Assembly (NCBI GenBank): GCA_029268695.1
Contig: JAQWNJ010000014.1
Span: 64,751 to 128,750 of the forward strand
Direction of reading: 5' to 3'
DNA: 64,000 bases
DNA from: Bacteroidia bacterium
Lineage (GTDB): Bacteria; Bacteroidota; Bacteroidia; NS11-12g; UBA9320
The first letter of the stretch is position 1. Every line of letters starts with the position of its first letter. The notes under the pieces are model-generated. The model saw only the letters and a list, made by a program, of their open reading frames with translations, did not search any database and was not told the origin of the DNA. Below are positions 37,553 to 54,868 of this stretch, piece by piece. The translations under genes were made by a program, and so were the position numbers.

Positions 37553-37999
37553 ATGAAAAAAATAGCTCTTCTTTCTACAAGCTTTGTTCTTCTAGGTATT
37601 CTCCTATTTGTATATCGGATGTTTAATAAACCACACACCAACGTCAAAGAAAATAAAGCATATGAACACCTTAGTGCTGAGCAGCTATTTTATTTTTTTA
37701 ATCGAAATGAAGACTCTGCTATGGTTGTATTTTCAGATCAAATCATTCAAGTTACAGGCACCCTTTTAACCAAAGATTTATCCAATGAATTAGAGCCACA
37801 AATCACACTAAAAACAAATATTAATAACGGTTTTATTCGATGTGGTTTTAAACCAAATGAACTTAAAAATATAGCTAAATTAAAAGATTCATCAACTGTA
37901 AAGATTAAAGGAATTTGCAAGGGGATGAATGGTGATGACGAACTCACACTACTAGAAGATAAAGATATCATATTATCATCTAGCATCATTATTGAATAA
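37553..37999 (+). CDS. Hypothetical N-terminally membrane-anchored protein (possibly OB-fold, tRNA_anti-like)
   Basis: It has an N-terminal TM/signal anchor followed by about 120 aa of beta-rich domain. It starts 8 nt after the upstream stop. Confidence 0.3.
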   Translation: MKKIALLSTSFVLLGILLFVYRMFNKPHTNVKENKAYEHLSAEQLFYFFNRNEDSAMVVFSDQIIQVTGTLLTKDLSNELEPQITLKTNINNGFIRCGFKPNELKNIAKLKDSSTVKIKGICKGMNGDDELTLLEDKDIILSSSIIIE

Positions 38000-38008
38000 T
38001 AAATTACC

Positions 38009-38566: not shown

Positions 38567-38578
38567 ATTTTCTAAAAC

Positions 38579-39466
38579 TTGAGAACCAATAAATACATAT
38601 CTCTCAGTAAAATTTTAATGATTATTATCATTAATGTTATTTATGGCTCTGCGTTTTCTCAAGAATTGAATTTGATAGACGATAACGAACCTGAGGGAAG
38701 AACGTATACCATAGCAACATTCAAAACTAATCGAATAGTTAATGGGCATAGTATTGAAACGGTGGCTAAAAATGAGCTCGACTTCAAAATATCCCATCGA
38801 TTTGGACTGCTTCACAATGGATTCTATGATTTATTCGGATTAGATCAAGCCTCTATGAGAATGGGAGGAGACTTTGGAATCACGGATAACCTAAATGTTG
38901 GCTTAGGAAGAAGTACGGTCGATAAAACATATGATGGCTTTGTTAAATACAAGTTTCTCAAACAAAGTATTGGATCAAAATCTTGCCCTGTAACAGGTGT
39001 TGTTATGAGCCATATAGGAATCAATACTCTGAAATGGACGCACCCTGAACGAAATAATTTATTTTCTAGTAGATTACACTTCACCCATCAATTATTATTG
39101 GCTCGTAAATTCTCCAAAAACTTTAGTGCTCAAATAACTCCAACGCTAACCCATCTGAACATTGTAGAAAATACTGCCTTTTCTAATGATGTAATTTCTA
39201 TTGGCGTAGGAGCCAGGCAAAAACTATTTACACGTGTTTCTGTTAATTTAGAGTATTATTATGTTTTCCCTGACCAAATAAAACCAAATAGCACTAATTC
39301 GCTATCAATGGGTTTTGACATCGAAACTGGAGGCCATGTTTTTCAGCTTTTTTTTACAAACTCATATGCCCCTTTTGAAAAAGGATTCATAACTGACACC
39401 AAAGGTAAATGGATCGACGGAGACGTTCGATTTGGTTTTAACATTGCAAGAATATTTGATTTTTAG
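38579..39466 (+). CDS. Hypothetical outer-membrane beta-barrel protein
   Basis: It has a signal peptide (TTG start retains the K/R n-region), alternating amphipathic beta strands, and a C-terminal RIFDF (aromatic terminus). Confidence 0.4.
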   Translation: MRTNKYISLSKILMIIIINVIYGSAFSQELNLIDDNEPEGRTYTIATFKTNRIVNGHSIETVAKNELDFKISHRFGLLHNGFYDLFGLDQASMRMGGDFGITDNLNVGLGRSTVDKTYDGFVKYKFLKQSIGSKSCPVTGVVMSHIGINTLKWTHPERNNLFSSRLHFTHQLLLARKFSKNFSAQITPTLTHLNIVENTAFSNDVISIGVGARQKLFTRVSVNLEYYYVFPDQIKPNSTNSLSMGFDIETGGHVFQLFFTNSYAPFEKGFITDTKGKWIDGDVRFGFNIARIFDF

Positions 39467-39488
39467 TATATTTGATAAGACATTTTAA

Positions 39489-42044
39489 ATGAAAACATCA
39501 TCATATACGTACCAATTTTTTATTTCTAAAGTTCGTGCTCTAGCTGTTATATTGACGCTATTGGTTTGTACTTTTTCCTCTAATGCCTCCCATGTAGTCG
39601 GTGGAGAATTGTATTATAATCGAGTGCTGAATCAATTTGGTAATGTTCGGTATGAAATAGTCTTCAAAATTTATTTTGACTGTCAGAATGCTAATCCTGG
39701 AACAATTGATCGAGATGGAAATCTTGCATACATTGGTGTGTTCGATGCTGTTACCAATGCACGCAAACAGACCATATCACTAAATAATGGTGTTAGAAAA
39801 GTCGTCAATTCGGTAAACTATGAATGCGTTAAAGAACCTTCTGGTGTTTGTGTAGTTCAATATACCTACAAAAAAACAGTATTCCTCAATCCTGGCACAA
39901 ATGGGCTTATTCTTTCTCATCAACTTTGTTGCAGAAATGCAATTACAGATAATGTAAACGATGCCGGAAACACAGGGTCAACCTATTGGAGTTATATCCC
40001 TCCTTCAAGCACTAACAATTCAAGTCCAAGATTCAAAAATATACCTCCAACATATGTATGTATCAACGCTCCTCTGACATTAGACTATAGTGCTCAAGAT
40101 CCAGATGGCGATTCTCTGGTTTATGAATTTTATACGCCTTTCTTGGGTGGATCAGCTACAGATCCAAAACCAGAAAATCCTAGCCCTCCTCCATATGCGT
40201 TATTAACATGGAATCCTTCTTTCTCTTCCAAAAATCAAGTTACAGGGAGCCCTTCTAGTTTCATTAATAGGCAAACAGGAGAATATACACTCACTCCCAC
40301 AGCTAAAGGAACTTATGCCGTTGGTGTTCGAGTACTTGAATATCGAAATGGGAGCCTTCTTGGCTCTACATTAAGCGATTACCAATTTACAGTCATTGAT
40401 TGTCAATTTGATGTAATTGCTAATTTCAACATACCAGGAGGGACAGCAGTTGGCGGTTCATATGCATTTGAATGTGGGGATACTGCTCGTTTCAACAACA
40501 TAAGTAACTGGAATAAAGTGAAAACACCCAAAGTAAAGTTCTTTTGGGATTTTGGAGATCCAACTACCAAGAATGATACACTAACAACATTCAACCTAAA
40601 TGATAAAGTTGAATATGTATATCCTGGAAATGGTGATTATACTATTAGTTTGAACATCATCTCTTCTATATGCAACGATACGTACAAATATGGTGTTCGG
40701 ATTCGATCCACTAAAGATGTGAACTTAGGGCCAGATCGTATATTCTGTAATGATTTCTCTATCCTACTTGACACAAAAGCACCAGATGCTATCTCCGTAG
40801 ATTGGAATACTGGAGCTACAGGAAGTAGAATAACAGTTAGCGATACTGGGACATATATACCAACGGTATCCTATGGAAAATGCGTTTATAAAGATACCGT
40901 TCAATTAACATATGATAAAGTTCCTACATTGAGATTGCCAAATGATACTTTGGAATGTGATACACTCATTGATGTAATTTTAGATGCTGGCATATCTGGC
41001 CTAAGCTATTCTTGGAATACAACCCCTCCTACATTATCCCAAAAGCTAAATGTTAATTCTGCCGGGGATTACATAGTCACCGCTATGAACCTAAATTGTA
41101 TAATTAAAGATACCATTCGGGTATGGCAAGCAACTCATCCCAAAGTGGAAAACGCATTTTATTGCAATGAATTTAACCATTTAGTTGACCTAAATGGTAT
41201 AGAAGAAGCTGAATATTTATGGGACAATGGAAGTTCTACTTCAGCTGTGACATACACAAGTCCTGGTAAACGCTGGATTCAATTAACTCAAAGACACTGC
41301 ATCAACTCCGACACGTTCATCATCGACAATTCTGGCGTTGATCTTGAATTGGGTGAAGACCAACACTTTTGTGATTTCATCGCTACTACATTAGACGCTG
41401 GTTCTGATGGTATAAAATATTCTTGGAATAATGGTGATACCACACAAACAATCAATGTGAGCACTCCAGGAAAGTATCGTGTTCTCGTTGAGAATAAAGA
41501 TGGGTGTACCAACTCAGACTCTGTTTTGGTAAGTGTGTCCAACTCCCCCACTTTCAATCTGGGTAGTGATACAACCATTTGTATCAACTCCCCTACAACC
41601 ATATCAGCCCCATCTGGATTTGTAAAATATTTATGGAATGATGAAAGTAGTGGGCAAAGCATTACAACCATTTTGGAAGGACTCTACAAAGTTACGGTTA
41701 CAGATAATTTAGGCTGTATAGGCTCAGATAGTCTATTTATTACAGTAGATGAAAATGCTCTACCCAATGAAATGTACTTCCCTAATGCATTTACCCCAAA
41801 TGGGGATAACTTAAATGAACTTTTCCCATATCAAATTGATGTCGCTCAGCCAGCATACTACATTATCATATACTCTAGGTGGGGAGAAAAAGTGTTCGAC
41901 TCAAGAACTTCATTAACAGATAATTGGGATGGAACATATCAAGGGAAAAAAGTTCCAAATGAAACCTTCTTTTACTATGTTAACTACAGAGGTTGTGATG
42001 GGAATACTCGAAATTCTAAAGGTACCGTCCAGCCCATTTATTGA
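39489..42044 (+). CDS. Large secreted adhesin-like protein with a T9SS type-B (gliding-motility-associated) C-terminal domain
   Basis: It has a signal peptide. The C-terminal ~90 aa (FPNAFTPNGDNLNELF...IYSRWGEKVF...NWDGTYQGKKVPNETFFYYVNY) match the TIGR04131-type CTD. The body has Ig/PKD-like beta repeats. Confidence 0.75.
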   Translation: MKTSSYTYQFFISKVRALAVILTLLVCTFSSNASHVVGGELYYNRVLNQFGNVRYEIVFKIYFDCQNANPGTIDRDGNLAYIGVFDAVTNARKQTISLNNGVRKVVNSVNYECVKEPSGVCVVQYTYKKTVFLNPGTNGLILSHQLCCRNAITDNVNDAGNTGSTYWSYIPPSSTNNSSPRFKNIPPTYVCINAPLTLDYSAQDPDGDSLVYEFYTPFLGGSATDPKPENPSPPPYALLTWNPSFSSKNQVTGSPSSFINRQTGEYTLTPTAKGTYAVGVRVLEYRNGSLLGSTLSDYQFTVIDCQFDVIANFNIPGGTAVGGSYAFECGDTARFNNISNWNKVKTPKVKFFWDFGDPTTKNDTLTTFNLNDKVEYVYPGNGDYTISLNIISSICNDTYKYGVRIRSTKDVNLGPDRIFCNDFSILLDTKAPDAISVDWNTGATGSRITVSDTGTYIPTVSYGKCVYKDTVQLTYDKVPTLRLPNDTLECDTLIDVILDAGISGLSYSWNTTPPTLSQKLNVNSAGDYIVTAMNLNCIIKDTIRVWQATHPKVENAFYCNEFNHLVDLNGIEEAEYLWDNGSSTSAVTYTSPGKRWIQLTQRHCINSDTFIIDNSGVDLELGEDQHFCDFIATTLDAGSDGIKYSWNNGDTTQTINVSTPGKYRVLVENKDGCTNSDSVLVSVSNSPTFNLGSDTTICINSPTTISAPSGFVKYLWNDESSGQSITTILEGLYKVTVTDNLGCIGSDSLFITVDENALPNEMYFPNAFTPNGDNLNELFPYQIDVAQPAYYIIIYSRWGEKVFDSRTSLTDNWDGTYQGKKVPNETFFYYVNYRGCDGNTRNSKGTVQPIY

Positions 42045-43803: not shown

Positions 43804-43838
43804 TAACACTGTTAATAAACTATCTTTGAAATTTTATT

Positions 43839-44303
43839 ATGCAAGTCAATAAAGCAATCCAGCTATTTGAAAAATCAATTCAAAAACACCTAAATATAAA
43901 ACCTGAAGAGATTCGCTGTAAAAATGACGGTGAATATGTAATTGTTAGGGGTAAATCTACTGAGGTTTATGTTGATATATGGCAACCTGAACAAACCAGT
44001 CAATGGCAATATTTTGATCGTGAAAAGATTGCCGGAATATTCCAAATTGTTTCCCCTATTTGTGAATATCCTCATGAAGAACATTTAGGGCAATTTATGG
44101 AAGAATTAGCTCATCTTAACTTTCATCTTTTTTCTGCAAAATTCGTAGCCAATGCTCAACAAAAAATTATAAGCATACAATACAAACGTATTTTGGAAGG
44201 GTTAAATGAAACTGAAATTATTGAACCTATTGAGGCCGTTGGTTATTATGCTGAAAACTTAAAAGAATATCTTGCCGAAAAATACCACGTTAAAAAAATT
44301 TAA
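43839..44303 (+). CDS. Hypothetical cytoplasmic protein (possibly YbjN-like)
   Basis: It is 154 aa with no signal peptide and weak resemblance only. Confidence 0.25.
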   Translation: MQVNKAIQLFEKSIQKHLNIKPEEIRCKNDGEYVIVRGKSTEVYVDIWQPEQTSQWQYFDREKIAGIFQIVSPICEYPHEEHLGQFMEELAHLNFHLFSAKFVANAQQKIISIQYKRILEGLNETEIIEPIEAVGYYAENLKEYLAEKYHVKKI

Positions 44304-44358
44304 CTGATTTACGGACAACTATTTTTATTATAGTAACATCTAATAAGTAATCCATGCG

Positions 44359-44901
44359 ATGAGCAATGATAAACATAATGACATATCATTAATAAAAGCT
44401 TGCAGCAATGGAGATCATAACGCTTTTAATAAAATATATAATAAGTACGCTGGACTAATGTATAGTATCTGTCTAAGATATATGAATTCACATAATGATG
44501 CCCAAGATGCTTTGCAGGAAGGGTTTATCAAAGTGTTTAATAAAATATCATCTTATTCATTTTCTGGGAGTTTTGAAGGTTGGATGAAAAAAATATTTAT
44601 TAATACGAGCATAGAGCTTATACGAAAGAAAAAATATCACCAAGATATCAATGACATAAGAGACTCTGAATTCAAGACAACATCTAAAATAAATGTTGGG
44701 TCTTTGGATGCTAAGAAAATGATTGATTTGATCCAAAAACTTCCTCAGGGTTATCGAACAGTATTCAACATGTATGTCATCGATGGGTATTCCCACAAAG
44801 AGATTTCTGAAATGCTTGATATTTCTGAGAGCACCAGTAAAACACAGTTATTTAAGGCACGTAAACAGCTTCAAATAAAATTAAAAGGATGGTTTGAATA
44901 A
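44359..44901 (+). CDS. RNA polymerase ECF-type sigma-70 factor
   Basis: Region 2 is present (YNKYAGLMYSICLRYMNSHNDAQDALQEGFIKVFNKI), as is a region 4 HTH (GYSHKEISEMLDISESTSKTQLFKARKQL). Confidence 0.85.
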   Translation: MSNDKHNDISLIKACSNGDHNAFNKIYNKYAGLMYSICLRYMNSHNDAQDALQEGFIKVFNKISSYSFSGSFEGWMKKIFINTSIELIRKKKYHQDINDIRDSEFKTTSKINVGSLDAKKMIDLIQKLPQGYRTVFNMYVIDGYSHKEISEMLDISESTSKTQLFKARKQLQIKLKGWFE

Positions 44902-46118
44902 TGAAAAAATTCAAAAACATATCAGAATTTGAAAGACTACTCAAAGACCAACTTGAGAATCATGCTACTCCACCACCATCATCAATTATAGAAAATTTTG
45001 ACCTTTCATCCATAAAGCAATCTAATGCAAAAACTTCAAAAATTATTGAATTAATTAAAAATCCAATTCAAGCAATTAAGATGGTCTCAATTATTGGGGC
45101 CTCTGCTACCATCCTATTTTTTGCAGTAAAAAATAAAAACTCCCCAATAAAAGATCTAAACGATACTATATCTGAGCATTCTTTCAGAACCATTGCAGAC
45201 TCTACTGTAAATATGCAAGACACTGAAAGCATTGAAAAAGATCTAAACGACATCCCAAAAGAGTTAAAAACATTCAAAAATGGTACGACAAACTCTTTAA
45301 TTCAGACATTACAGACAAAAAGTACTCAGGAAACTCAAATGTCTTTTAAAATTGTTGAGGACGAATCTGACAAGTCAATTAATACCGGGGAAATACCCGA
45401 AAATTTAGATGTATCTAATTTTAATCCATGCATCGGTGAAATAATCACCTTGAAAAGCAGGACCAAGGGAGACTGGTACATTAATAATCAAATATTTTCT
45501 AGAAATGCTGACCTTATTGAATATAAAGCAGATACTGATCAACCTGTTTCAATAGTTTTTACAAACGAGCATGGCGAAACTCATGAAGTGATTGAAGGCT
45601 TGAAAACTAACTATCAAATAATCACTAAAAAAATCGATTTTAACACATTCTCATTCTCAATAAACAATCAAAACATCCTTGCTAACTGGTATCTTGGTGA
45701 CACATTAATAGCTAAAAATACAAACAAATGCCAACTTAAAGAAAAACTAGTAGGTGAGTACGTAATTAAAACCGTACCCATAAATATTCCTTGTGCTGAA
45801 AAAAGTAAAACGACATTTCAAGTCAAAAGCGAAGGATCTATTAAGTTTTTCAATGTATTTACACCTAACGGAGATGGTACTAACGATGAATACCCGGTAG
45901 AAATAAGTAACTATGAAAATTATAAGATTCTCATTTTTAACCAAAGGAATGGCCAAATTATATTTACATCCGACAACCCTGAGAATCGATGGAACGGGAG
46001 CATAAATAATATTGGTGAAAATTGCCCTCCTGGAGAATATCTAGCTAAAATTAATTACACCTTAAAAGGAGAAAAACCTCAGACAAAGAATATAAAATTC
46101 ACGTTAATACGCCCCTAA
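44901..46118 (+). CDS. Anti-sigma-like single-pass membrane protein carrying a T9SS type-B C-terminal domain
   Basis: Its ATG overlaps the sigma stop (TAATGA). The first ~58 aa are hydrophilic, one TM follows (IKMVSIIGASATILFFAV, nt ~45078-45128), then a low-complexity S/T/N linker and a beta domain. The C-terminus is FFNVFTPNGDGTNDEY...ILIFNQRNGQIIF...RWNGS...CPPGEYLAKINY...KFTLIRP, a type-B CTD. Confidence 0.55.
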   Translation: MKKFKNISEFERLLKDQLENHATPPPSSIIENFDLSSIKQSNAKTSKIIELIKNPIQAIKMVSIIGASATILFFAVKNKNSPIKDLNDTISEHSFRTIADSTVNMQDTESIEKDLNDIPKELKTFKNGTTNSLIQTLQTKSTQETQMSFKIVEDESDKSINTGEIPENLDVSNFNPCIGEIITLKSRTKGDWYINNQIFSRNADLIEYKADTDQPVSIVFTNEHGETHEVIEGLKTNYQIITKKIDFNTFSFSINNQNILANWYLGDTLIAKNTNKCQLKEKLVGEYVIKTVPINIPCAEKSKTTFQVKSEGSIKFFNVFTPNGDGTNDEYPVEISNYENYKILIFNQRNGQIIFTSDNPENRWNGSINNIGENCPPGEYLAKINYTLKGEKPQTKNIKFTLIRP

Positions 46119-46183
46119 ATTTGAATATTATGACGAAGCAAACTAACTTTACAAACTTTTTTATGAATTATAATAATCTCATT

Positions 46184-49100
46184 ATGAATATTTCAGGATC
46201 AAAATATGTATTTATCAAATACATATTTACATTGTTATTTATCTCATCAAGTATCATTGGTTATTCCCAATGTAGCCCAAAAGTGGTCAGAACTGATGGC
46301 ACATTGAGCACATCAGGTACTTTTTGTGAAGGTCAAATTATATCATTTGAAGCCAACTCCCCAGGATATACCACTACCATTGAGTGGGATTTTGGGTACA
46401 ACAATAACAAGAGTAGTGCTGAGAAACCCACCTTCAACTACCCTGTTGCAGGCACATACACCGTTACCTTTAAAGGGGACGGTTTTGCAGGTCAGTGTAC
46501 CGAAACGTTAACAATTACAGTTAAGCCTTCACCGGATATTTATTTTAAACGCTTGAATGATTCTGCACAATGTTTTAAAAGTAATTTATTTTGTTTTCAA
46601 GACAGTTCACAAGCACCAAGTGGTCTAATTGTGAGGCAAACCTATGTATTCAGTAACGGATTGCGAATAGATTCTATAAACCCGACCTTTCCTTACTCAT
46701 TTTGTGTAGATATTACAGACCCTAGCGGAGGATTTTTTGATTTGGTTATAGAATCTGAAGACTCTAGTGGTTGTGTTAGCAAACTATCATTCAAAGATTA
46801 CCTCTACGTTTATCCAAAATTAGGTATAGAATTTCAAAACCTGACACCTAACCCAAATCCAAATTGTGATTCCACATTAGGTGTATATAAAAATGTTTCA
46901 CTGGTTCCATTATCAGACATAGACTCTTTCGAGTGGGTATTTGGAGATGGAAATTCTGTAAAAGGTAACTCAACAACTAATACAGAATGGTGGAATGGCC
47001 TTGATCCAGCTGAACCAGGAATTATAAAGCACATGTACCGTAAAAATGGAACATTTGACGGAACACTGATTGCATCAGCATATGGATGTAGTGACACCTT
47101 TACTTTTAAAGCAGCTGTAGGCAATATTCTGCTAGAACCTAAAATTATCTCGACACCAAACCCTGCTTGTACGTCAGACAATCCAATTGAATTTTCAGTT
47201 CAAGGACTAAATGGAGCTAATGTGAGTTCATTCTTATGGAATTTTGGTAATCCTCCAGCGGGTCCACCAAACTTTAATGATAAGACTTTAACTCCAGAAT
47301 TTTCTTATGGACCAGGCCCTTGGATGATTAGTCTTAGATTACAATCAGGACCATGTGATATCACTGTATATGACACCGTTCAAGTTATCGGCCCTGGATC
47401 TACAATTGAAGTTGCATTTGATAGGGTTGCAGAAGATCAGGCATACCAATGTGTGATTGAAGATACCGTTTGTTTCCCGAATAATTCCTCTTATTATCAA
47501 AATGACTTCAATCAATTGGATGAAGATTCAATTGTTTTCTACTATAAATATACATTCGAGCGAGTGTATGACATCAGTTCAGGACTTTACACTTGGCATT
47601 ACAAGACTTGGGAGGAAAGACCACGTGGTAATTTCCTGCTCAATGATTCTACTTATGGCAACACGGATACAATCATCAACAATGGCTATAAAGTGTATTA
47701 TGATGCTTCAAAAGACTCCATAGCAGCAATTAGTGGAGGCGATACCACTTGGCACAAAGACTTTTACGCTGCAGCCCCAAATTTGAGTTATCGTTTCGGA
47801 GTTGATGGGAAAAAGCGATTTGTTTTCAACTATACACCTCCAGCAGGTAGAGGTGGGGTTGGAGTCGGAGACCAAACCGCTATTCCTCCAGCTGAGCAAT
47901 ATAAAGATTATAGACCAAATGTATGGAGAGTGTGGGATATGGGAGACCAATATGCACCTCAATGTACAACTGACTCAAGACCTTGGGTAAACAAAAATGT
48001 CGGCATAAATTGTAATTGGGTGATTGATAGTGCTCCATGCCATTGGTACACACCGTGGGACGAAATTTACAGTACTTTCCAAGAAGGTAGAAACTACACT
48101 CAACCATACCGAGAGACCCGAATATCAAAACCCTTAAGAGAGTGCTATGTGGTAAACATTTATGCTGCTGACACCATGATTGTTCCTGGCGATACAGTCT
48201 TAACAATTCCAATTGACTCATCCTACACTTATCGTGGTGTGAATATTCCAGCAGGTGTAACTTATGCAAACAATAGGCTTGGGAATTGGATTGTAAGACG
48301 TCCACCCTCTAAATTTTATGGAACTAAGTTTTATTGGGATGCTGCAAGAGACACCTTCGTTGCAATAAATAATATTGTAGACACTACCTTACATAATGAA
48401 GATTCATTAGGTAGAAATAATCCTCGTAATGGAAAAGGAAATACCCAATGGACCATAACATATCACGACATGGAATTCAGTATTCCCGCAGGTGTCACTA
48501 TTGATATACTAAAACTTGATGCTCCTGGTGGAGGTGGTGGTGCTGGTGCGACCAGATCTATCACAGGTCCAAGAAAAGTCATTATTGAAGCTGACGAACA
48601 GTTTACTTTGTATAGTCTTGATTCAATTACTCCAACAATATATATTGAAGAAAACGATCCTGACACCACCTATGCTCAACCATCTGCTTACGTTGTTCAA
48701 GAAGAAAGGTTTGGTATCCCTGTAAGGGTCGTAAAACAAGCTGTGTTTGTTGACTCAGCAGGTCACCGCGAAAAATGGTTTACTGATCAAGCAGTATGTT
48801 TTAATGTTTCTCTTTGGCAAAAAGATACAATTCACCCATTGTTATGTGAGTCTACGAGTACAAAATCATTAGCACTTATCCCACCAAATGCAAAAGGATT
48901 AGAATGGGTTAGTGGAACACCTTGTCCATTTGATGGGAACAATTTAAATTATATTCTCACTTTTGATATATCTGAGACTAAGCCAGGCTGTACACAACAG
49001 TGGTTTGCAGTAAATCTAGATACTTTTGCTGACCCAAATGCCTTTATTCCATTCAACCAAGGGCTCTTGGCTCCACCACCACCAGGGCTCCCCATACCTT

Positions 49101-51976
49101 TCGTACTTCCGTATGATATACGAGGTAATCTGGGCACTCAATTTGTCAAAGGATATACTCCAGGTCAAATAGGAGATCCCTATGCAAGAAATCCAATTGG
49201 TTCATTCGCCCTTGGATTGATTGTTGGAAACGGTAAACCAGATCCTAATGGAGGGCCTCCTGCATGTCTAGATACATTCTACTATCCAGATTTATTTAGA
49301 ATATTACCCCTCGATGCTAGTTTTGATATTGTATATCCAACACCTATTAGCACTACTCCTTTACAGTACTACATGTGCCCAGGAGATACCGCATACTACA
49401 GAATTACTAACCCAATTCAAGATAGTATCAAAACACTTCGATGGGCATGGGGTTACCAAGGTTTAGGAAAAGGTCCTAAGCTATCGATATATGTAGAAGA
49501 ATTCAAGTATTATGAACCTTATACTGGTCCTAGGCCAAACAGAAACGATAAAAACATTGTATATAATGGCGAGGATTGGTTGTATAACTATGTAGTTCGC
49601 AGAAATCTTACTGATGTGTTAGGTGAAGAATTATTGGATACTATTGTCACTTCTATCATTAAAGATTGGAAAACTGTCGCAATCAAAACAAACACCGACA
49701 GACTAATTAAAGATGCCTTTGAACAATTATTAAATCTAAACTACAATGAAATACCAGCAGAAGATATCCCATATTATCTTGGAGATGGAACCTATGGTTG
49801 TTTAGATACAACTGGAATAAGTGCTCTTTTCCAATTTGGTAAAGAAGTATATTCTGACAAAACCGGTGAGTGGGGTGTATCACGTGTAGGTGATAAAATA
49901 TATCGTACCGATACAAGTGTAACCCCAAATGTTCAAATAGAAACACAACACATTCTACACTTCAGAGACTCGTCTATGCAAGGATTTGACACCCTTATGT
50001 TGGATACCAACTTTGATGGTAAGAAGGACATGTTAACTGGTCTTTATAGACACATCTATAAATATCCTGTAATTACTAATCCAGACGAATGTAATCCTGG
50101 TGTGAAGGATACCATTTATAAAAATGGTAGTGGACCAATGGCACCATCTCTATTCTTAAACAGTACTCCTGGTTGTGAGGCAAGATCTACCAAACTCTTA
50201 AACGTAGGTTTTTACAACGACTTCTGGGTAAGTAATGAGAACTTATGTCAAGGTCTAAATCTTGTTATTGAAGATTCCCTAAGATACTATCAATATGGGG
50301 AGCAAGATCCACTAACCTATCCAATTCACGATTTCCCATTGTGGCAAACAAGATATATTACAAATAAGGAAACTTATCGAGCAGATTGGGATATTAATGA
50401 TGGCCAATTTGATAGTACTCGTTCTATAATCCTAAACCACACCTACACTGAACCAGGAGAATACACAATTACCGTTGTAGCTGAGGATAGTATTGGTTGT
50501 ACAGATACTACTTTATTGAAAGCTTATGTATCTAAGGTTATTCCTGGATTTGATTTTGGAAGTGAAATTGTGAATTGTGCATCCATTATTAATTTCCAAG
50601 ACACAACTTCAGTGATTGACCCATGTGCTGCAAAAGATACCTGCACCAATGGTACTGACTTATCTTGTGAGAAAATTATCGCATGGGAATGGGATTTCGG
50701 GGACGGAACTAGAAAAAGTATACTCCAAAATCCATCTCATAATTACACATCTGGTGGAACTTACACTGTAACACTTATCGTTACAACTCAACTCGGATGT
50801 ATAGATAGTATCAAACGACAACTATATATTCCTGGTCCACAACCAAGATTTGAGTTTGATAATGATGTATGGAACACCAATGATACAGCAGTAATCTGTG
50901 TGAATGATTTAGTTAACCTTAAAAATACTAGTCAAGGAGATGTAAATAATCCTAAATTCCAAATCATTTGGGGAGACGGAAGTAACGACCCTCCTGGTGA
51001 TATAGACTCTGTGTTTGGTCATGTTTATACGACTCCAGGAACCTATGAATTGTTCTTAATCCAAGAAGATGAAATACCAGGAACGGGTAATCGTTGTTCA
51101 AGAATTTTCCCAGATACAAATCCAGATCTACTGATTCAACGTCGAATTGTAGTTATTGTGAATCCTCGCCCTGAGGTAGAAATTACTGCATCAGATACGT
51201 TAGTTTGTCCTGATGATCCTATAACATTTACGGGTATTCTAGATGACCGATATATTCGATTAAAATGGTTAATGGGGTACAATGATGATGAGATTAACGA
51301 AAATGTACCTGATACAACCGTAACATACGCTTATCCTAATCCTGGCGTATATGATGTTGTCTTAGCACCTGAATATGATGAATTACCAAGATGTTGGGAT
51401 AGAGATACTATTAGAGTCAGAGTAGTTGACGTTAAAGCAAGTTTCGATATCGATAGCTCTGCAAGACCAGAATTCTGCTTCACTAATACATCAACTGGAG
51501 CTATTAGCTACCAATGGACGTTCGAAGAAAATGATCCTGAGGTAGATGGCTCTAGTGAAGAAACAGACCCATGTTATAATTGGGGTGAACGAAAAGGTGT
51601 TTATCAAGTATGTCTTACGGCAATCAGCTCAGAAGGTTGTGAGGACGACACTTGTCAAACAATATCAAATACGTTTATGAGACGACTTGTCCCATACAAC
51701 GTCTTCACTCCTAACAGCGACGATGATAAAAACACTGAATTCGTAGTTGAAGGAGAAAGCCTTGATGAATACGAAATTAAAATCTTTAATCGATGGGGTG
51801 AGTCTGTCTTCAAGTCCACTGATATTAACTACTCTTGGAACGGTAAAGTTAACAATACCGGAGAAGAATGCCCTGAAGGAACCTACTTCTACATCATAAA
51901 CTACACATTTAAATTTGGTGAGAAAAATGAAGGTAAAGGACCTATTGAAGGTTCTGTAGACTTGATTAGAAATTAA
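46184..51976 (+). CDS. Giant (~1930-aa) PKD-domain SprB-like cell-surface adhesin with a T9SS type-B C-terminal domain
   Basis: It starts 3 nt after the upstream stop. The signal peptide is MNISGSKYVFIKYIFTLLFISSSIIGYSQ (a TTG at 46121 is an alternative start). There are multiple PKD-like repeats (WDFGDGT..., EWDFGDGTRKSILQNPSHNYTSGGTYTVTLIVT). The C-terminal type-B CTD is YNVFTPNSDDDKNTEF...IKIFNRWGESVF...SWNGK...CPEGTYFYIINY...GSVDLIRN. Confidence 0.8.
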   Translation: MNISGSKYVFIKYIFTLLFISSSIIGYSQCSPKVVRTDGTLSTSGTFCEGQIISFEANSPGYTTTIEWDFGYNNNKSSAEKPTFNYPVAGTYTVTFKGDGFAGQCTETLTITVKPSPDIYFKRLNDSAQCFKSNLFCFQDSSQAPSGLIVRQTYVFSNGLRIDSINPTFPYSFCVDITDPSGGFFDLVIESEDSSGCVSKLSFKDYLYVYPKLGIEFQNLTPNPNPNCDSTLGVYKNVSLVPLSDIDSFEWVFGDGNSVKGNSTTNTEWWNGLDPAEPGIIKHMYRKNGTFDGTLIASAYGCSDTFTFKAAVGNILLEPKIISTPNPACTSDNPIEFSVQGLNGANVSSFLWNFGNPPAGPPNFNDKTLTPEFSYGPGPWMISLRLQSGPCDITVYDTVQVIGPGSTIEVAFDRVAEDQAYQCVIEDTVCFPNNSSYYQNDFNQLDEDSIVFYYKYTFERVYDISSGLYTWHYKTWEERPRGNFLLNDSTYGNTDTIINNGYKVYYDASKDSIAAISGGDTTWHKDFYAAAPNLSYRFGVDGKKRFVFNYTPPAGRGGVGVGDQTAIPPAEQYKDYRPNVWRVWDMGDQYAPQCTTDSRPWVNKNVGINCNWVIDSAPCHWYTPWDEIYSTFQEGRNYTQPYRETRISKPLRECYVVNIYAADTMIVPGDTVLTIPIDSSYTYRGVNIPAGVTYANNRLGNWIVRRPPSKFYGTKFYWDAARDTFVAINNIVDTTLHNEDSLGRNNPRNGKGNTQWTITYHDMEFSIPAGVTIDILKLDAPGGGGGAGATRSITGPRKVIIEADEQFTLYSLDSITPTIYIEENDPDTTYAQPSAYVVQEERFGIPVRVVKQAVFVDSAGHREKWFTDQAVCFNVSLWQKDTIHPLLCESTSTKSLALIPPNAKGLEWVSGTPCPFDGNNLNYILTFDISETKPGCTQQWFAVNLDTFADPNAFIPFNQGLLAPPPPGLPIPFVLPYDIRGNLGTQFVKGYTPGQIGDPYARNPIGSFALGLIVGNGKPDPNGGPPACLDTFYYPDLFRILPLDASFDIVYPTPISTTPLQYYMCPGDTAYYRITNPIQDSIKTLRWAWGYQGLGKGPKLSIYVEEFKYYEPYTGPRPNRNDKNIVYNGEDWLYNYVVRRNLTDVLGEELLDTIVTSIIKDWKTVAIKTNTDRLIKDAFEQLLNLNYNEIPAEDIPYYLGDGTYGCLDTTGISALFQFGKEVYSDKTGEWGVSRVGDKIYRTDTSVTPNVQIETQHILHFRDSSMQGFDTLMLDTNFDGKKDMLTGLYRHIYKYPVITNPDECNPGVKDTIYKNGSGPMAPSLFLNSTPGCEARSTKLLNVGFYNDFWVSNENLCQGLNLVIEDSLRYYQYGEQDPLTYPIHDFPLWQTRYITNKETYRADWDINDGQFDSTRSIILNHTYTEPGEYTITVVAEDSIGCTDTTLLKAYVSKVIPGFDFGSEIVNCASIINFQDTTSVIDPCAAKDTCTNGTDLSCEKIIAWEWDFGDGTRKSILQNPSHNYTSGGTYTVTLIVTTQLGCIDSIKRQLYIPGPQPRFEFDNDVWNTNDTAVICVNDLVNLKNTSQGDVNNPKFQIIWGDGSNDPPGDIDSVFGHVYTTPGTYELFLIQEDEIPGTGNRCSRIFPDTNPDLLIQRRIVVIVNPRPEVEITASDTLVCPDDPITFTGILDDRYIRLKWLMGYNDDEINENVPDTTVTYAYPNPGVYDVVLAPEYDELPRCWDRDTIRVRVVDVKASFDIDSSARPEFCFTNTSTGAISYQWTFEENDPEVDGSSEETDPCYNWGERKGVYQVCLTAISSEGCEDDTCQTISNTFMRRLVPYNVFTPNSDDDKNTEFVVEGESLDEYEIKIFNRWGESVFKSTDINYSWNGKVNNTGEECPEGTYFYIINYTFKFGEKNEGKGPIEGSVDLIRN

Positions 51977-52002
51977 TCTGTAATTCTATATCACATTAAA
52001 AA

Positions 52003-52030
52003 ACCATTTGCTAAGGCGAATGGTTTTTTA
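52003..52030 (+). terminator. Rho-independent terminator after the giant adhesin gene
   Basis: CCATTTGC-TAAG-GCGAATGG with one G-U pair is followed by TTTTTTA. Confidence 0.5.
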
Positions 52031-52072
52031 TTTATTGAATCAATTTAAAATAATTTATGTTGATTTGCAGTG

Positions 52073-52175
52073 CTTATAAAGAAAGACTGAGGGATTAGGC
52101 CCATAGACGTCTTGGCAACCTGAGTATCAAAATATCAAGGTGCTACATCCTATCCCACAATTGGGAGAAGATAAG
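52073..52175 (+). promoter_or_regulatory. SAM-I (S-box) riboswitch in the metH 5' leader
   Basis: CTTATAAAGAAAGACTGAGGGATTAGGCCCATAGACGTCTTGGCAACC...AGGTGCTACATCC...AGAAGATAAG matches the SAM-I consensus (CUUAUCAAGAG-GGC-GAGGGA-GGCCC-AUGAA-CC-GGCAACC / GGUGC-AAUUCC / AGAUAAG). P1 is CTTAT/ATAAG, P3 is AGAC/GTCT, and P4 is ACCTGA/TCAAGGT. Confidence 0.6.
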
Positions 52176-52213
52176 TGTTCTATAAACCTAATTGTAAACT
52201 CTCATTAATAATT

Positions 52214-54868
52214 ATGACAAGACAATTAGAAAATTACCTTCGATTAAGTGGTTTAGAACCATTAGTTAAGTCACCCAATATCAATTTTATGAATATTGGT
52301 GAACGAACAAACATTACAGGTTCTAAGAAATTTGCTCGCCTAATTTTAAATGATCAATATGATGAAGCAATTGATATTGCTCGACAGCAAGTAGAGAATG
52401 GAGCTCAAATCATCGATGTAAATATGGACGAAGGAATGCTAGATGGAAAGTCTGCAATGATTAAATTCTTAAACCTTATTGCTGCGGAACCAGATATCTC
52501 AAGAGTTCCTGTAATGATTGATTCTAGTAAGTGGGAGATTATTGAAGCTGGACTTAAAGTTGTACAGGGTAAAGGAATTGTAAATTCAATAAGCCTAAAA
52601 GATGGCAAAAAAGAATTTATCAAAAGAGCTAAAAAAATTAAGTGGTTTGGAGCTGCCACCGTGGTAATGGCTTTTGACGAAAATGGACAAGCAGATACTT
52701 TTGAAAAAAGAATAAATATATGTCAACGTAGCTACGATATCCTTGTCAATGAAGTTCAATTCCCTCCTCCAGATATCATATTTGATCCCAATATTTTAAC
52801 GGTTGCAACTGGTATTGAAGAACATAATAATTACGCAGTAGATTTTATTGAAGCTACTCGGTGGATTAAAGAAAATCTACCTTTTGCTAAAGTTAGTGGA
52901 GGTGTAAGTAATATTTCATTCAGTTTTAGAGGTAATAATATTATTCGAGAAGCGATGCATTCTGCATTTCTTTATCATGCTATAAAAGCCGGCTTAGATA
53001 TGGGAATTGTCAACGCGGGTATGATCGAAGTATACGAGGAGTTGCCCAAAAATATTCTTGAAGCAGTTGAAGATGTTATTCTGAACAGGCATGAAGATGC
53101 AACTGAAAATTTAATAGCTCTTGCTGAAGTCGTCAGAGGGAATGGTAAAAAAATTGTTCAAGACCTAAGTTGGAGAAATGAAAATGTTTACGAGCGGTTA
53201 AAACATTCTCTCATAAAAGGAATAACGGAATATATTGAAGAAGACACCGAAGAAGTTCGTCAACAACTCAACAAACCCATAGAGGTTATAGAAGGTCCGC
53301 TCATGGCAGGAATGAGTGTAGTTGGAGATTTATTTGGGAGTGGTAAAATGTTCTTGCCTCAAGTAGTCAAAAGTGCACGGGTAATGAAAAAATCCGTAGC
53401 ATACTTACAACCTTATCTAGAAACTGAAAAAAGTGAAGGAAACACCCAGGGGAAAATATTATTAGCAACCGTAAAAGGAGATGTTCATGATATTGGAAAA
53501 AATATTGTTGGAGTAGTTTTAGCATGTAATAACTACCATATAATTGATCTTGGTGTCATGGTTCCAACCAATACTATTATTGATGCTGCAATTGAACACA
53601 ACGTCGATATGATTGGACTAAGCGGTTTAATAACTCCTAGTTTAGAAGAGATGGTTAATATAGCAGACGAAATGGAAAGAAGATCTTTGAAAATACCTGT
53701 ATTAATTGGTGGTGCAACAACCTCTCGAATGCATACAGCTGTTAAGGTAGCTCCAAAGTATTCTGGACCAGTAATCCATGTATTAGATGCCTCTCGATCG
53801 GTTCCGGTAGCTAGTCAACTCATTAGCACAAAAACACATGAAAACTTTACAACTCAAATTAAATCCGAATATGATCAACTTGCTATTCAACATGCAGCTC
53901 GACAATCTGAAAAAAAGGTACTTTCATTCAATGAATGTCTGAACAATAAACCCATACTTAATTGGAATGATTACACTCCTCCAACACCAAATAAAACTGG
54001 AGTTGAAATATTAAAAGATTTTGATTTATCTGAGCTAAGAAACTATATCGATTGGACCCCTTTCTTTTCAACTTGGGAACTCAAAGGTAAATATCCTGAT
54101 ATTTTTGAGGATATCTATGTTGGGGAAGAAGCAAAAAAGTTATTTGAGGATGCTCAAGAAATGCTCGATCAATTAATTTCTAAAAAAATCCTTAGTGCTA
54201 ATGGAATTGTTGGAATTTTTGAAGCTTTTGAAGAACAAGGAGACATAATACTCCCAAAAAATCAGATAACTTTCAATTGTCTTCGTCAACAAAGAAAGAT
54301 GGGTAATAATATACCAAATCGTTCTCTAGCTGACTTTATAGCTCCAAAAAATACAGGTAAGAAAGACTACTTAGGAGCATTTGCCGTAACCACTGGAATA
54401 GGAATTGAAAAAATTGTAGAAAAATATGAAAAGGATCAAGATGACTATAATTCAATTTTGGTAAAAGCTATTGCTGATCGACTTGCAGAGGCATTTGCGG
54501 AATACTTGCATGAGTATGTCCGAAAAAAAATGTGGGGTTATGCTTCTGATGAAATATTAGATAACGAACTGCTGATACGGGAAAAGTATCAGGGTATACG
54601 ACCTGCACCTGGATATCCTGCATGTCCTGATCATACCGAAAAAGGGAAACTTTGGGATTTACTTGATGTAGAAAATCATACGGACATTAGTCTAACTGAA
54701 AGTTACGCTATGTACCCAACTGCTGCTGTATCTGGATTCTATTTTTCACACCCAGAAAGTAAATATTTTGCTGTAGGAAAAATTGGAGAGGATCAATTAA
54801 AAAATTATGCTCATCGTAAAAATGTTTCTTTTGAATATGCTAAAAAATGGTTAAGCCCTAACTTATGA
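52214..54868 (+). CDS. metH: Cobalamin-dependent methionine synthase lacking the homocysteine-binding domain (split metH)
   Basis: The pterin-binding, B12-cap/B12-binding and AdoMet-reactivation domains are present. It starts at the pterin-binding domain (RLSGLEPL...[16 protein letters not shown]...[22 protein letters not shown]), which aligns with E. coli MetH from about residue 345. The B12-binding motif is [11 protein letters not shown]. The ATG is at 52214; the track's GTG at 52175 lies inside the riboswitch. Confidence 0.85.

What the first reader, a model, noticed from the sequence alone, without database searches (positions are those of the whole stretch)
44359..51976. ECF sigma factor translationally coupled to a membrane protein with a T9SS type-B CTD and a giant type-B T9SS adhesin
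Three genes sit on one strand with a 1-nt overlap (TAATGA) and a 3-nt gap. The first is an ECF sigma factor. The second has the topology of an anti-sigma factor: about 58 cytoplasmic residues, one TM, then an extracytoplasmic domain. That domain ends in a bona fide gliding-motility type-B C-terminal sorting domain. The third is a 1951-aa PKD/SprB-like adhesin with the same CTD class. Bacteroidota ECF sigma/anti-sigma pairs are classically wired to SusC/FecR-type trans-envelope signalling. I am not aware of a described pairing with T9SS type-B cargo. The arrangement suggests either sigma-factor control of a dedicated adhesin, or an anti-sigma factor whose extracytoplasmic part is itself engaged by the T9SS, which would couple secretion-apparatus status to transcription. 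A strong terminator follows at 52003-52030, which delimits the unit.
Basis: partly seen in the sequence, partly recalled or inferred. Interest (0 to 1): 0.78.

Follow-up and report, generated by a model that had tools for sequence, protein, structure and literature searches.

The report
Sigma/anti-sigma adhesin cassette with T9SS tag
This is a conserved gene cassette of uncultured marine and freshwater Bacteroidia in which an alternative sigma factor is paired with a membrane-anchored partner that carries the sorting tag of the type IX secretion system, next to a giant adhesin with the same tag, which suggests an undescribed way of tying adhesin production to secretion.

Summary
An ECF sigma gene (44359-44901) overlaps by 1 nt a 405-aa gene. 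That gene encodes a 57-aa cytoplasmic head, one TM helix, a roughly 90-aa disordered tether, two Ig-like domains and a type-B T9SS CTD that passes the curated cut-off. A roughly 1950-aa PKD/type-B-CTD protein and a strong terminator follow.

- The unit starts one gene earlier, with a 154-aa protein of T3SS-chaperone/YbjN fold.
- An ECF-type promoter (GRCAAC-N17-CWTCTA, 44314-44342) lies just before the sigma gene and recurs there in relatives.
- The sigma/TM-CTD/giant-adhesin triad is not a one-off. It was found in 29 GTDB species, in 13 of 13 metagenome loci, and in every distant representative whose contig reached far enough. The gene-2 family has at least 140 clusters at 50% identity.

Source databases name these proteins only generically. 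No paper in the library describes them.

Best reading: an autoregulated sigma/anti-sigma/adhesin operon whose anti-sigma factor is engaged by the T9SS through its tethered CTD. The sigma/anti-sigma/adhesin wiring is well supported by comparative evidence. T9SS gating is inference. The nearest precedent is PorA-CTD signalling through PorY, PorX and SigP.

The parts
43821..43828 (+). TATCTTTG, a match to the Bacteroidota housekeeping -7 box (TAnnTTTG), 10 nt before the start of the chaperone-like gene
   Evidence: Read from the sequence. Similar boxes sit at this position in relatives. The consensus is taken from PMC9723704. Assigning it as a promoter is inference.
43839..44303 (+). 154-aa cytoplasmic protein with the T3SS class I chaperone / YbjN fold; first gene of the conserved cassette
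   Evidence: The AF2 model has pLDDT 91.6. Foldseek against the PDB matches ExsC, SicP, CesT, SchA, SycE, YbjN and AmyR with TM-scores of about 0.46-0.78. Pfam hits are sub-threshold. NCBI names relatives 'YbjN domain-containing'. The gene precedes the sigma gene in 29 of 29 GTDB loci and in 12 of 12 metagenome loci.
44314..44342 (+). ECF-type promoter GACAAC-N17-CATCTA, 17 nt before the sigma start codon
   Evidence: It is the only exact match in the window. There is one exact match in each of 28 loci, always at this position. The generalised form GGCAAC(C)-N16-17-C[GAT]TC is present before the sigma gene in the distant cassettes L005, L038, L040, L042, L045, L046 and L048.
44359..44901 (+). 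ECF (group IV) sigma factor, 180 aa
   Evidence: Domain scores are. The closest solved relatives are SigW, RpoE and AlgU-type sigma factors. It forms one clade, 33-63% identical, with the sigma factors of all other cassettes.
44901..45071 (+). Gene 2, residues 1-57: cytoplasmic head carrying the conserved motif (MKKFKNISEFExLLKxxLxxHxxPPP; family consensus NIxxFDxLFKxxLxxAxxxPPxGVWExVSS)
   Evidence: Alignments. The model shows a helix at residues 7-19 with the rest at low confidence. No anti-sigma Pfam, NCBIfam or PDB match was found.
45072..45128 (+). Gene 2, residues 58-76: single TM segment, read as a signal anchor with the N-terminus inside
   Evidence: Hydropathy is about 2.0 over 19 residues. 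The TM starts at residues 33-89 (median 57) in 162 family members. No small-residue or Q-rule signal-peptidase site follows it.
45129..45395 (+). Gene 2, residues 77-165: variable, low-complexity, disordered periplasmic tether
   Evidence: pLDDT is mostly below 35, rising towards the Ig-like domains. The stretch is unconserved. The distance from TM to CTD is never below 120 aa in 162 family members.
45396..45836 (+). Gene 2, residues 166-312: two Ig-like beta-sandwich domains (absent from the roughly 295-aa subfamily)
   Evidence: pLDDT is about 90. Foldseek matches tandem Ig/FnIII arrays.
45837..46118 (+). Gene 2, residues 313-405 plus the stop codon: type-B T9SS C-terminal sorting domain
   Evidence: CHU_C scores 57.2 bits and TIGR04131 scores 44.6 bits, above the cut-off of 35. 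It lacks the RWG motif that gene 3 and other type-B CTDs keep.
46130..51976 (+). Giant adhesin-like protein (about 1948 aa from ATG 46130; the ORF opens at TTG 46121). It has an N-terminal extension, a signal peptide with a Q-rule site (..GYS|QC, at about 46268), four PKD stretches, a large unassigned central region, and a type-B CTD at 51695-51973
   Evidence: It is collinear and homologous (25-60% identity) with the giant proteins of the other cassettes.
51997..52030 (+). Intrinsic terminator that closes the unit

Best explanation
The locus is a four-gene regulatory and adhesion cassette.

**Proposed mechanism**
1. The ECF sigma factor transcribes its own operon from the GRCAAC-N17-CWTCTA promoter. 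The operon comprises the sigma gene, gene 2 and the giant adhesin gene.
2. Gene 2 is the cognate single-pass anti-sigma factor. Its roughly 35-residue conserved cytoplasmic motif holds the sigma factor at the inner membrane.
3. Its periplasmic part is a tether of at least 120 residues that ends in a type-B T9SS sorting domain. The tether is long enough for the sorting domain to reach the outer-membrane T9SS machinery.
4. When a working T9SS, or its receptor for type-B CTDs, engages that domain, the anti-sigma factor is pulled and/or cleaved and removed. This would resemble regulated intramembrane proteolysis of RseA and RsiW.
5. The released sigma factor raises adhesin synthesis. The cell would therefore make the costly roughly 1950-aa type-B cargo only when it can be exported.
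6. The upstream cytoplasmic protein with a T3SS-chaperone/YbjN fold is expressed from its own housekeeping-type promoter. It probably binds the unstructured cytoplasmic head of the anti-sigma factor, or the sigma factor itself, as a partner-switch or stabilising component.

**What is shown and what is inferred**
- Shown: gene order, gene coupling, protein domains, the promoter motif and its conservation.
- Inferred: sigma binding, T9SS engagement, proteolysis and the role of the chaperone-like protein.

**My estimates**
- Sigma/anti-sigma pair driving the adhesin operon: about 0.8.
- Gating by the T9SS in particular: about 0.35.
For: - **Coupling.** The sigma gene and gene 2 overlap by 1-8 nt, or are separated by at most 3 nt, in every locus examined.
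- **Co-inheritance.** The sigma factors form one clade that travels with gene 2.
- **Promoter.** An ECF-type promoter is conserved before the sigma gene across subfamilies whose surrounding intergenic sequence is not conserved. In L045 an identical second copy (TGCAACC-N16-CATCTT) lies between gene 2 and the adhesin gene.
- **Single transcription unit.** In the window there is no second promoter copy and no convincing terminator between the sigma gene and the end of gene 3. The scan's one + strand match in that interval is a weak 5-pair stem inside gene 3 (46371-46387). The gap between gene 2 and gene 3 is 11 nt.
- **Architecture of gene 2.** All 162 family proteins that passed the TM and CTD filters have a head of at least 32 residues, a TM, at least 120 further residues, and a CTD at the exact C-terminus.
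- **Sorting domain.** The CTD passes the TIGR04131 cut-off.
- **Tether.** It is disordered in the model.
- **Sigma relatives.** The closest solved relatives are SigW, RpoE and AlgU, all controlled by proteolysis of a single-pass anti-sigma factor (the control mechanism is established knowledge).
- **Chaperone-like protein.** The fold is assigned with high confidence.
- **Precedent.** A periplasmic T9SS CTD can act as a regulatory signal, even when tethered to the inner membrane: PorA-PorY-PorX-SigP (PMC12152298).
- **Link to T9SS genes.** A porQ equivalog lies directly upstream of the sigma gene in L045.
Against: - The head of gene 2 matches no known anti-sigma domain. It scores nothing for zf-HC2, RskA, FecR or RsgI_N, and has no PDB hit.
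- T9SS cargo normally has a cleavable signal peptide and is released into the periplasm. Gene 2 is membrane-anchored, so it cannot be ordinary cargo.
- Its CTD has lost the RWG motif. In the roughly 295-aa subfamily the CTD falls below the TIGR04131 cut-off, at 21.7 bits against 35. It may have been repurposed.
- No PorP/SprF-like partner gene is in the cassette.
- PorA signalling was reported to be independent of a working T9SS. By analogy, the CTD may signal without being transported.
- The chaperone-like gene is absent from some cassettes: L005, L045, L046 and L048.
- All hosts are uncultured and there is no expression or protein data.
Confidence: 0.4

Rival explanations
1. Gene 2 is the anti-sigma factor, but its CTD-like domain is a stationary periplasmic sensor that the T9SS does not transport or pull. 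It would bind a periplasmic partner, such as unsecreted type-B cargo, the adhesin itself, a PorP/SprF-type shuttle or PorV/PorQ. It would report cargo load or free anchor sites, giving homeostatic feedback on adhesin synthesis. This would be a one-protein version of PorA-PorY signalling.
For: - PorA's CTD signals from the periplasmic face of the inner membrane, and does so in T9SS mutants (PMC12152298).
- Gene 2's CTD diverges from canonical type-B CTDs. It has lost RWG, and the short subfamily scores below the cut-off.
- Gene 2 is permanently anchored.
Against: - The tether is never shorter than 120 residues and the CTD is strictly C-terminal. A sensor that stays at the inner membrane would not obviously need either feature.
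- The CTDs of gene 2 and gene 3 show no concerted evolution.
Confidence: 0.3
2. Gene 2 is not an anti-sigma factor. It is an accessory of the adhesin, for example a membrane-tethered co-secreted or anchoring subunit. It sits after the sigma gene only because the operon is compact, and the sigma factor is controlled in some other way.
For: - No known anti-sigma domain is present.
- The Ig-like and CTD architecture resembles that of surface proteins.
Against: - Start/stop overlap with the sigma gene is conserved across subfamilies that share only about 25-30% identity in gene 2.
- Outside the CTD, the most conserved part of gene 2 is the cytoplasmic head. A periplasmic accessory would not need it.
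- The Ig-like domains are dispensable: the roughly 295-aa subfamily lacks them.
Confidence: 0.1
3. The real switch is the chaperone-like/YbjN-like protein. It would act as an anti-sigma or anti-anti-sigma partner switch, as ExsC does. Gene 2 would only tether the complex to the membrane, and the CTD would be irrelevant to signalling.
For: - The fold matches ExsC, CesT and YbjN-family regulators.
- The gene is linked to the cassette in 29 of 29 and 12 of 12 loci.
- It has its own housekeeping-type promoter.
Against: - It is absent from several otherwise complete cassettes.
- This reading does not explain why the CTD and the long tether are universally kept.
Confidence: 0.1

Closest known systems
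RpoE-RseA, SigW-RsiW and AlgU-MucA: ECF sigma factors held by single-pass anti-sigma factors that are removed by regulated intramembrane proteolysis
   Same: - The sigma factor is closest in sequence to these.
- The partner gene lies downstream and is translationally coupled, and its product is predicted to be single-pass with the N-terminus inside.
- The promoter is autoregulatory in type, with an AAC -35 element and a C(G/A)TC -10 element.
   Different: - The cytoplasmic head is only about 35 conserved residues and matches no anti-sigma domain family.
- The extracytoplasmic end is a T9SS sorting domain on a long disordered tether.
- The operon carries its own giant cargo gene.
PorA-PorY-PorX-SigP of Porphyromonas gingivalis (PMC7712824, PMC12152298)
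   Same: - A T9SS CTD acts as a regulatory signal that ends at an ECF sigma factor.
- An engineered PorA tethered to the inner membrane still signals.
   Different: - PorA has a type-A CTD and is ordinary secreted cargo. It acts through a two-component system and regulates T9SS component genes.
- Here a type-B CTD is fused directly to the putative anti-sigma factor, the target is an adhesin, and no PorX/PorY genes are in the cassette.
FlgM-sigma28, and ExsA-ExsD-ExsC-ExsE: transcription gated by type III secretion
   Same: - The logic is the same: an inhibitor of transcription carries the export signal of the machine whose cargo it controls.
- A protein with a T3SS-chaperone fold, whose PDB matches include ExsC, is part of the cassette.
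   Different: - The secretion system is different. The T9SS acts from the periplasm across the outer membrane.
- The inhibitor here is membrane-anchored, so it cannot simply leave the cytoplasm.
- There is no sequence homology.
FecI-FecR-FecA and the Bacteroides SusC-linked ECF/anti-sigma trans-envelope signalling systems
   Same: An inner-membrane anti-sigma factor whose periplasmic end contacts an outer-membrane machine.
   Different: - There is no FecR domain and no TonB-dependent transducer in the cassette.
- The putative contact module is a T9SS CTD.
SigI-RsgI of Clostridium thermocellum (recalled from memory, not checked here)
   Same: Anti-sigma factors whose extracytoplasmic ends carry modules borrowed from the extracellular apparatus that they regulate.
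   Different: - That system is Gram-positive and has an RsgI_N domain, and the sensor is a carbohydrate-binding module.
- No RsgI_N match was found here.

Membership tests
ECF (group IV) sigma-70 factors | Sigma2 and sigma4 domains only, about 180-200 aa | tested here: met
   Sigma70_r2 scores 51.3 bits and r4_2 scores 64 bits. TIGR02937 scores 95.2 bits against a cut-off of 42.9. The protein is 180 aa.
ECF (group IV) sigma-70 factors | ECF-type promoter (AAC -35 element, CGT-like -10 element) before its own gene | tested here: met
   GACAAC-N17-CATCTA at 44314-44342. The motif is conserved at this position in 28 loci and in distant cassettes. Dependence on the sigma factor was not tested.
Named ECF equivalogs (SigW, RpoE, GFO_1088/PG0214 family, Sig70_bacteroi1) | Score above the curated NCBIfam cut-off | tested here: not met
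   The best scores are 101.1 bits against 209 (SigW), 97.2 against 126.4 (TIGR02985) and 92 against 130 (NF058625).
Membrane-bound anti-sigma factors | Gene adjacent to and co-translated with the sigma gene | tested here: met
   A 1-nt overlap in the window. Overlaps of 1-8 nt or gaps of at most 3 nt in all relatives.
Membrane-bound anti-sigma factors | Single TM with the N-terminus inside and a cytoplasmic sigma-binding head | tested here: inconclusive
   One TM at residues 58-76 and a conserved 35-residue head. The topology is predicted only. Sigma binding was not tested.
Membrane-bound anti-sigma factors | Recognisable anti-sigma domain (zf-HC2/ASDI, RskA, FecR, RsgI_N and similar) | tested here: not met
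   No Pfam or NCBIfam hit other than the CTD. A PDB profile search of the head found nothing relevant.
T9SS type-B CTD cargo | TIGR04131 or CHU_C domain above the cut-off at the extreme C-terminus | tested here: met
   Gene 2 scores 44.6 bits against 35 and 57.2 against 27. Gene 3 scores 40.2 against 35 and 67.5 against 27. A median of 0 residues follow the CTD in 162 relatives.
T9SS type-B CTD cargo | Cleavable Sec signal peptide, so that the protein is free in the periplasm | tested here: not met
   Gene 2 has a 57-residue head before the hydrophobic segment and no signal-peptidase or Q-rule site. Gene 3 does have one (..YS|QC). Gene 3 therefore qualifies as ordinary cargo and gene 2 does not.
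T9SS type-B CTD cargo | Neighbouring PorP/SprF-like partner gene (common but not universal) | tested here: not met
   None is in the cassette or its flanks. A DUF5777 beta-barrel gene sits next to another CHU_C protein upstream. A porQ gene is adjacent in L045 only.
T9SS type-B CTD cargo | Export that depends on the T9SS | not testable with these tools
   This needs genetics or proteomics in a host.
T3SS class I chaperone / YbjN superfamily | Alpha-beta-beta-beta-alpha-beta-beta-alpha fold | tested here: met
   Model pLDDT is 91.6. Foldseek TM-scores to ExsC, SicP, CesT, SycE and YbjN run from about 0.46 to 0.78, with E-values down to 4e-6.
T3SS class I chaperone / YbjN superfamily | Sequence-family score above the cut-off (PF10722, PF22550, PF22551) | tested here: not met
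   The best scores are 11-18.5 bits against cut-offs of 22-27. There is no NCBIfam hit. NCBI nevertheless labels some relatives 'YbjN domain-containing'.
SprB-type gliding adhesin | SprB repeats (PF13573) | tested here: not met
   Gene 3 has only PKD and CHU_C hits. SprB repeats occur only in the giant protein of the unrelated cassette L005.

The most novel reading that the evidence does not exclude
The anti-sigma factor is a true pseudo-substrate of the T9SS. Its C-terminal type-B CTD is captured and pulled by the proton-motive-force-driven secretion machinery while its N-terminus stays in the inner membrane. The mechanical or proteolytic release of the sigma factor then reports 'T9SS working and free'. 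This would be the first secretion-gated sigma switch for the T9SS, a trans-envelope counterpart of FlgM-sigma28. The T3SS-chaperone-like protein would act as its cytoplasmic partner-switch component.
Probability: 0.25. Interest if true: 0.85.

Novelty: new variant of a known kind. Interest (0 to 1): 0.7.

Why it matters
- **Open question.** How Bacteroidota match the synthesis of very large surface adhesins to the capacity of the T9SS is not known. Outside Porphyromonas, regulation of T9SS cargo is largely uncharted.
- **A candidate answer.** This cassette is compact, widespread and self-contained. It consists of one sigma factor, one tethered partner bearing the secretion tag, one cargo and often one chaperone-like protein.
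- **A second case of CTD signalling.** If the CTD is the signal, this would extend the recent PorA finding that a T9SS sorting domain can also act in signalling. It would go from a single pathogen to many environmental Bacteroidia, and from type-A to type-B CTDs.
- **Directly testable parts.** The cassette offers a defined promoter motif, a 35-residue head and a swappable CTD.
- **An unexpected component.** A protein with a T3SS-chaperone fold appears in a T9SS context.
- **Annotation.** The approximately 35-residue conserved motif (NIxxFDxLFKxxLxxAxxxPPxGVWExV) within the cytoplasmic head (57 residues in the window protein) could be turned into a family model, so that these proteins are no longer labelled only 'gliding motility-associated C-terminal domain protein'.

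Tried and rejected
1. A profile of the gene 2 head (A2) searched against the 5.8-billion-protein index returned only one fragment. It was not informative. The exhaustive representatives search was what revealed the family.
2. A PDB profile search with the head found no anti-sigma structure.
3. I looked for a second sigma/anti-sigma-like pair in the window at 20063-21201. These ORFs are not sigma-related.
4. I tested whether the CTDs of gene 2 and gene 3 evolve in concert, which would point to a shared specific receptor. They do not. Each clusters with its own orthologues, and the two are 28-44% identical to each other.
5. I considered that gene 2's head plus hydrophobic segment is an extended, ESPR-like cleavable signal peptide. 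I rejected this because no signal-peptidase or Q-rule site follows the segment, whereas gene 3 has one. The conserved head also always comes with start/stop coupling to a sigma gene.
6. I searched the window for a second ECF promoter copy before gene 3 and found none.
7. A broad 36-sequence alignment of the head was too diverse for the metagenome scan. A narrower one worked.
8. Literature searches for a described anti-sigma factor with a T9SS CTD, or for a YbjN-ECF link, found nothing. The library holds only open-access papers.
9. I could not assign an ECF-hub group number, because the supplements of PMC7826278 are not held.
10. The host taxonomy could not be resolved beyond 'uncultured Bacteroidia'.

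Full report
**1. The observation**

The first ORF (44359-44901, 180 aa) is an ECF sigma factor. Sigma70_r2 scores 51.3 bits, Sigma70_r4_2 scores 64 bits, and TIGR02937 scores 95.2 bits against a cut-off of 42.9. It passes none of the named equivalog models: SigW 101 against 209, TIGR02985 97 against 126, and the GFO_1088/PG0214 family 92 against 130.

The second ORF (44901-46118, 405 aa) starts on the last base of the sigma stop codon (gaaTAATGaaa). Its only family hit is the type-B T9SS sorting domain at residues 314-404. CHU_C scores 57.2 bits against 27, and TIGR04131 scores 44.6 bits against 35. Its only hydrophobic segment is at about residues 58-76.

The third ORF runs from TTG 46121 to 51976. 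It has four PKD stretches and a type-B CTD that passes both cut-offs. It has no SprB repeats.

A hairpin with a 15-bp stem and a U run follows at 51997-52030 (-18.8 kcal/mol, z = -5.2).

Two small corrections apply:
- The gap to the TTG is 2 nt.
- The probable start of gene 3 is ATG 46130, an 11-nt gap, because a peptide (..KFTNF..) downstream of it is conserved in translation in the closest relatives. It precedes a normal signal peptide that ends in a Bacteroidota 'Q-rule' site (GYS|QC).

**2.

*An upstream gene.* A 154-aa ORF (43839-44303) with no Pfam family lies 55 nt upstream of the sigma gene. A -7 box of the Bacteroidota housekeeping type (TATCTTTG, 43821-43828) precedes it (consensus from PMC9723704). 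Its AF2 model is confident (pLDDT 91.6). The model matches T3SS class I chaperones and YbjN-family regulators, including ExsC, SicP, CesT, SchA, SycE, YbjN and AmyR, with TM-scores of about 0.46-0.78 and E-values down to 4e-6. Sequence-family hits are sub-threshold. NCBI labels some relatives 'YbjN domain-containing'.

*A promoter.* The 55-nt spacer holds GACAAC-N17-CATCTA (44314-44342). This is an ECF-type promoter with an AAC -35 element and a C(A/G)TC -10 element.

**3. Comparative evidence**

Close and distant homologues of gene 2 found by protein search always sit in the same order: chaperone-like gene, sigma gene, gene 2, giant CHU_C protein. This holds in loci syntenic with the window (L001, L002) and in unrelated contexts (L003, L004, L006, flanked by sucD and mnmE). 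All four proteins are homologous between these two subfamilies, at 32%, 44%, about 25% and 29% identity.

| Search | Result |
|---|---|
| GTDB species genomes, queried with the 154-aa protein | 29 loci, all uncultured Bacteroidia MAGs. Every locus long enough to judge has the full order. |
| 1.84 billion representative proteins, queried with a gene 2 profile | Nearly all of the best 150 clusters (50% identity) share the architecture. |
| Contexts of five distant representatives | Sigma gene overlapping gene 2, then a protein of about 1350 aa (truncated by the contig end) to 2040 aa, in four cases. The fifth contig was too short but carries a sigma C-terminus. |
| Metagenome scan seeded only with the cytoplasmic motif | 13 of 13 loci have the sigma gene, 12 of 12 the chaperone-like gene, and 7 of 7 the giant protein. 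|

The shared architecture is a conserved cytoplasmic motif (NIxxFDxLFKxxLxxAxxxPPxGVWExVSS), a TM at about residues 45-65, and a type-B CTD. Lengths run from 284 to 488 aa.

The sigma factors form one clade, 33-63% identical. The giant proteins are collinear homologues, 25-60% identical, except in L005. Some cassettes (L005, L045, L046, L048) lack the chaperone-like gene. Source databases give only generic names.

**4. The promoter**

The exact pattern GRCAAC-N17-CWTCTA occurs once in the window. It also occurs once in each of 28 loci, always between the chaperone-like gene and the sigma gene, while the rest of that spacer is not conserved. A generalised form, GGCAAC(C)-N16-17-C[GAT]TC, precedes the sigma gene in the distant cassettes too.

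In the window there is no second copy. No convincing terminator lies between the sigma gene and the end of gene 3: the scan's one + strand match there is a weak 5-pair stem inside gene 3 at 46371-46387. Gene 3 is therefore most simply co-transcribed with the sigma gene and gene 2.

In L045 a 256-nt spacer separates gene 2 from the giant gene. There, a second copy identical in both boxes (TGCAACC-N16-CATCTT) lies 38 nt after gene 2. This is the best available evidence that the adhesin belongs to this sigma factor's regulon.

**5. Anatomy of gene 2**

The AF2 model gives:
- a short helix at residues 7-19;
- a low-confidence TM helix;
- a disordered stretch at residues 77-165, mostly pLDDT below 35, which is also the least conserved part;
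- two confident Ig-like domains at residues 170-310, with tandem Ig/FnIII matches;
- a confident CTD.

The roughly 295-aa subfamily lacks the Ig-like domains and joins the TM to the CTD by about 130 low-complexity residues.

In 162 family proteins the hydrophobic segment never starts before residue 33 (median 57). The CTD ends at the C-terminus, and the distance from TM to CTD is never under 120 residues. A tether of that length could span the periplasm. This is inference.

No signal-peptidase site follows the TM, whereas gene 3 has one. Gene 2 is therefore read as a signal-anchored protein rather than as ordinary cargo.

Its CTD keeps the TPNGDGxND and WNG motifs but has lost the RWG motif that gene 3 and other type-B CTDs keep. 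The two CTD lineages evolve separately. In the short subfamily the CTD falls below the TIGR04131 cut-off.

**6. Most likely mechanism**

I read the cassette as an autoregulated ECF sigma/anti-sigma/cargo operon with an upstream chaperone-like modulator.

- *Shown:* gene order, start/stop coupling, the sigma clade, the conserved promoter, the domain architecture and its invariants.
- *Inferred from established knowledge:* the closest solved relatives, SigW, RpoE and AlgU, are held by single-pass anti-sigma factors and released by regulated proteolysis.
- *Inferred:* the conserved head of gene 2 binds the sigma factor. The tethered CTD is engaged by the T9SS or its type-B receptor. Engagement leads to removal of the anti-sigma factor, so that the giant type-B cargo is made when export capacity exists.

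I put about 0.8 on the sigma/anti-sigma/adhesin wiring and about 0.35 on T9SS gating.

The main rival, at about 0.3, is a stationary periplasmic CTD sensor that reports cargo load. This would resemble P. gingivalis PorA, whose CTD binds PorY, signals to SigP, works when tethered to the inner membrane, and works in T9SS mutants (PMC12152298). Less likely readings are that gene 2 is merely an adhesin accessory, or that the chaperone-like protein is the real switch.

The role of the chaperone-like protein is unknown. Candidates include binding the unstructured head of gene 2 and binding the sigma factor.

**7. Comparison with known systems**

The cassette works like RpoE-RseA or SigW-RsiW in layout, but fails the anti-sigma domain test. 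In using a T9SS CTD as a signal it resembles PorA-PorY-PorX-SigP. It differs in CTD class, in wiring (a direct fusion with no two-component system) and in target. Its logic resembles FlgM-sigma28 and ExsC-ExsE, with no homology beyond the chaperone fold. It is not a FecR/SusC-type system, because it has no FecR domain and no TonB-dependent transducer.

**8. Novelty and limits**

I found no description in the held literature. The ECF reclassification paper does not mention CHU_C or gliding, and its supplements are not held. I rate the cassette a new variant of a known kind: ECF/anti-sigma signalling with an unprecedented extracytoplasmic module, plus a chaperone-like partner.

Limits:
- No cultured host was identified.
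- There is no expression or interaction data.
- The head domain is unassigned.
- The library covers open-access papers only.

Noticed in passing
window 52071-52177 (+) and 52175-54868 (+): A SAM-I riboswitch (RF00162, 70.5 bits) lies directly before a short metH-like gene of 897 aa. The gene has the pterin-binding, B12-binding and activation domains but no homocysteine S-methyltransferase domain. The same short form follows the cassette in L001, L002, L038 and L040. L046 has a full 1229-aa metH.
   Followed up: partly
window 37508-42044 (+): A conserved block of four genes: tRNA_anti-like, YceI, a DUF5777 outer-membrane beta-barrel, and an 851-aa PKD/type-B-CTD protein. The block is syntenic in L002 (all four genes) and, as far as that locus extends, in L001 (YceI, DUF5777 and the CHU_C protein). 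The DUF5777 barrel next to a type-B cargo might play a PorP/SprF-like role.
   Followed up: no
window 46130-46267 (+): In the window's subclade, gene 3 has a conserved N-terminal extension of about 20 residues (..KFTNF..) ahead of an otherwise normal signal peptide. The extension is absent from L038, L040 and the roughly 295-aa-gene-2 subfamily. Its function is unknown.
   Followed up: partly
L045 4733-5791 and 7871-7898: In one distant cassette a porQ equivalog (NF033711, 336.8 bits against a cut-off of 220) sits directly upstream of the sigma gene. A second copy of the ECF promoter motif lies between gene 2 and the giant gene.
   Followed up: yes
proteins P0169, P0192, P0212, P0220, P0232, P0240: Some family members carry two tandem copies of the cytoplasmic head motif before the TM.
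   Followed up: no
L005 7418-17236: A cassette with an unrelated head shows the same logic: a sigma gene with the same type of promoter, a TM-PKD-CHU_C protein, a 122-aa gene, and a protein of more than 2500 aa rich in SprB repeats. The architecture may have arisen or diversified more than once.
   Followed up: partly
L048 3974-7302: A second ECF-like sigma gene, with PhyR_sigma2 similarity, lies convergent with a 928-aa DUF7948/CHU_C protein just upstream of the cassette.
   Followed up: no
window 1-64000: The rest of the window is ordinary chromosomal housekeeping, including mfd, a 2-oxoglutarate dehydrogenase E1 subunit, a MATE transporter, a Mur ligase, an SNF2 helicase and a carboxyltransferase. 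There are no tRNA genes, and GC content is about 31-39%. No T9SS core genes are in the ten larger ORFs scanned; about 30 other ORFs outside 37-56 kb were not scanned.
   Followed up: partly
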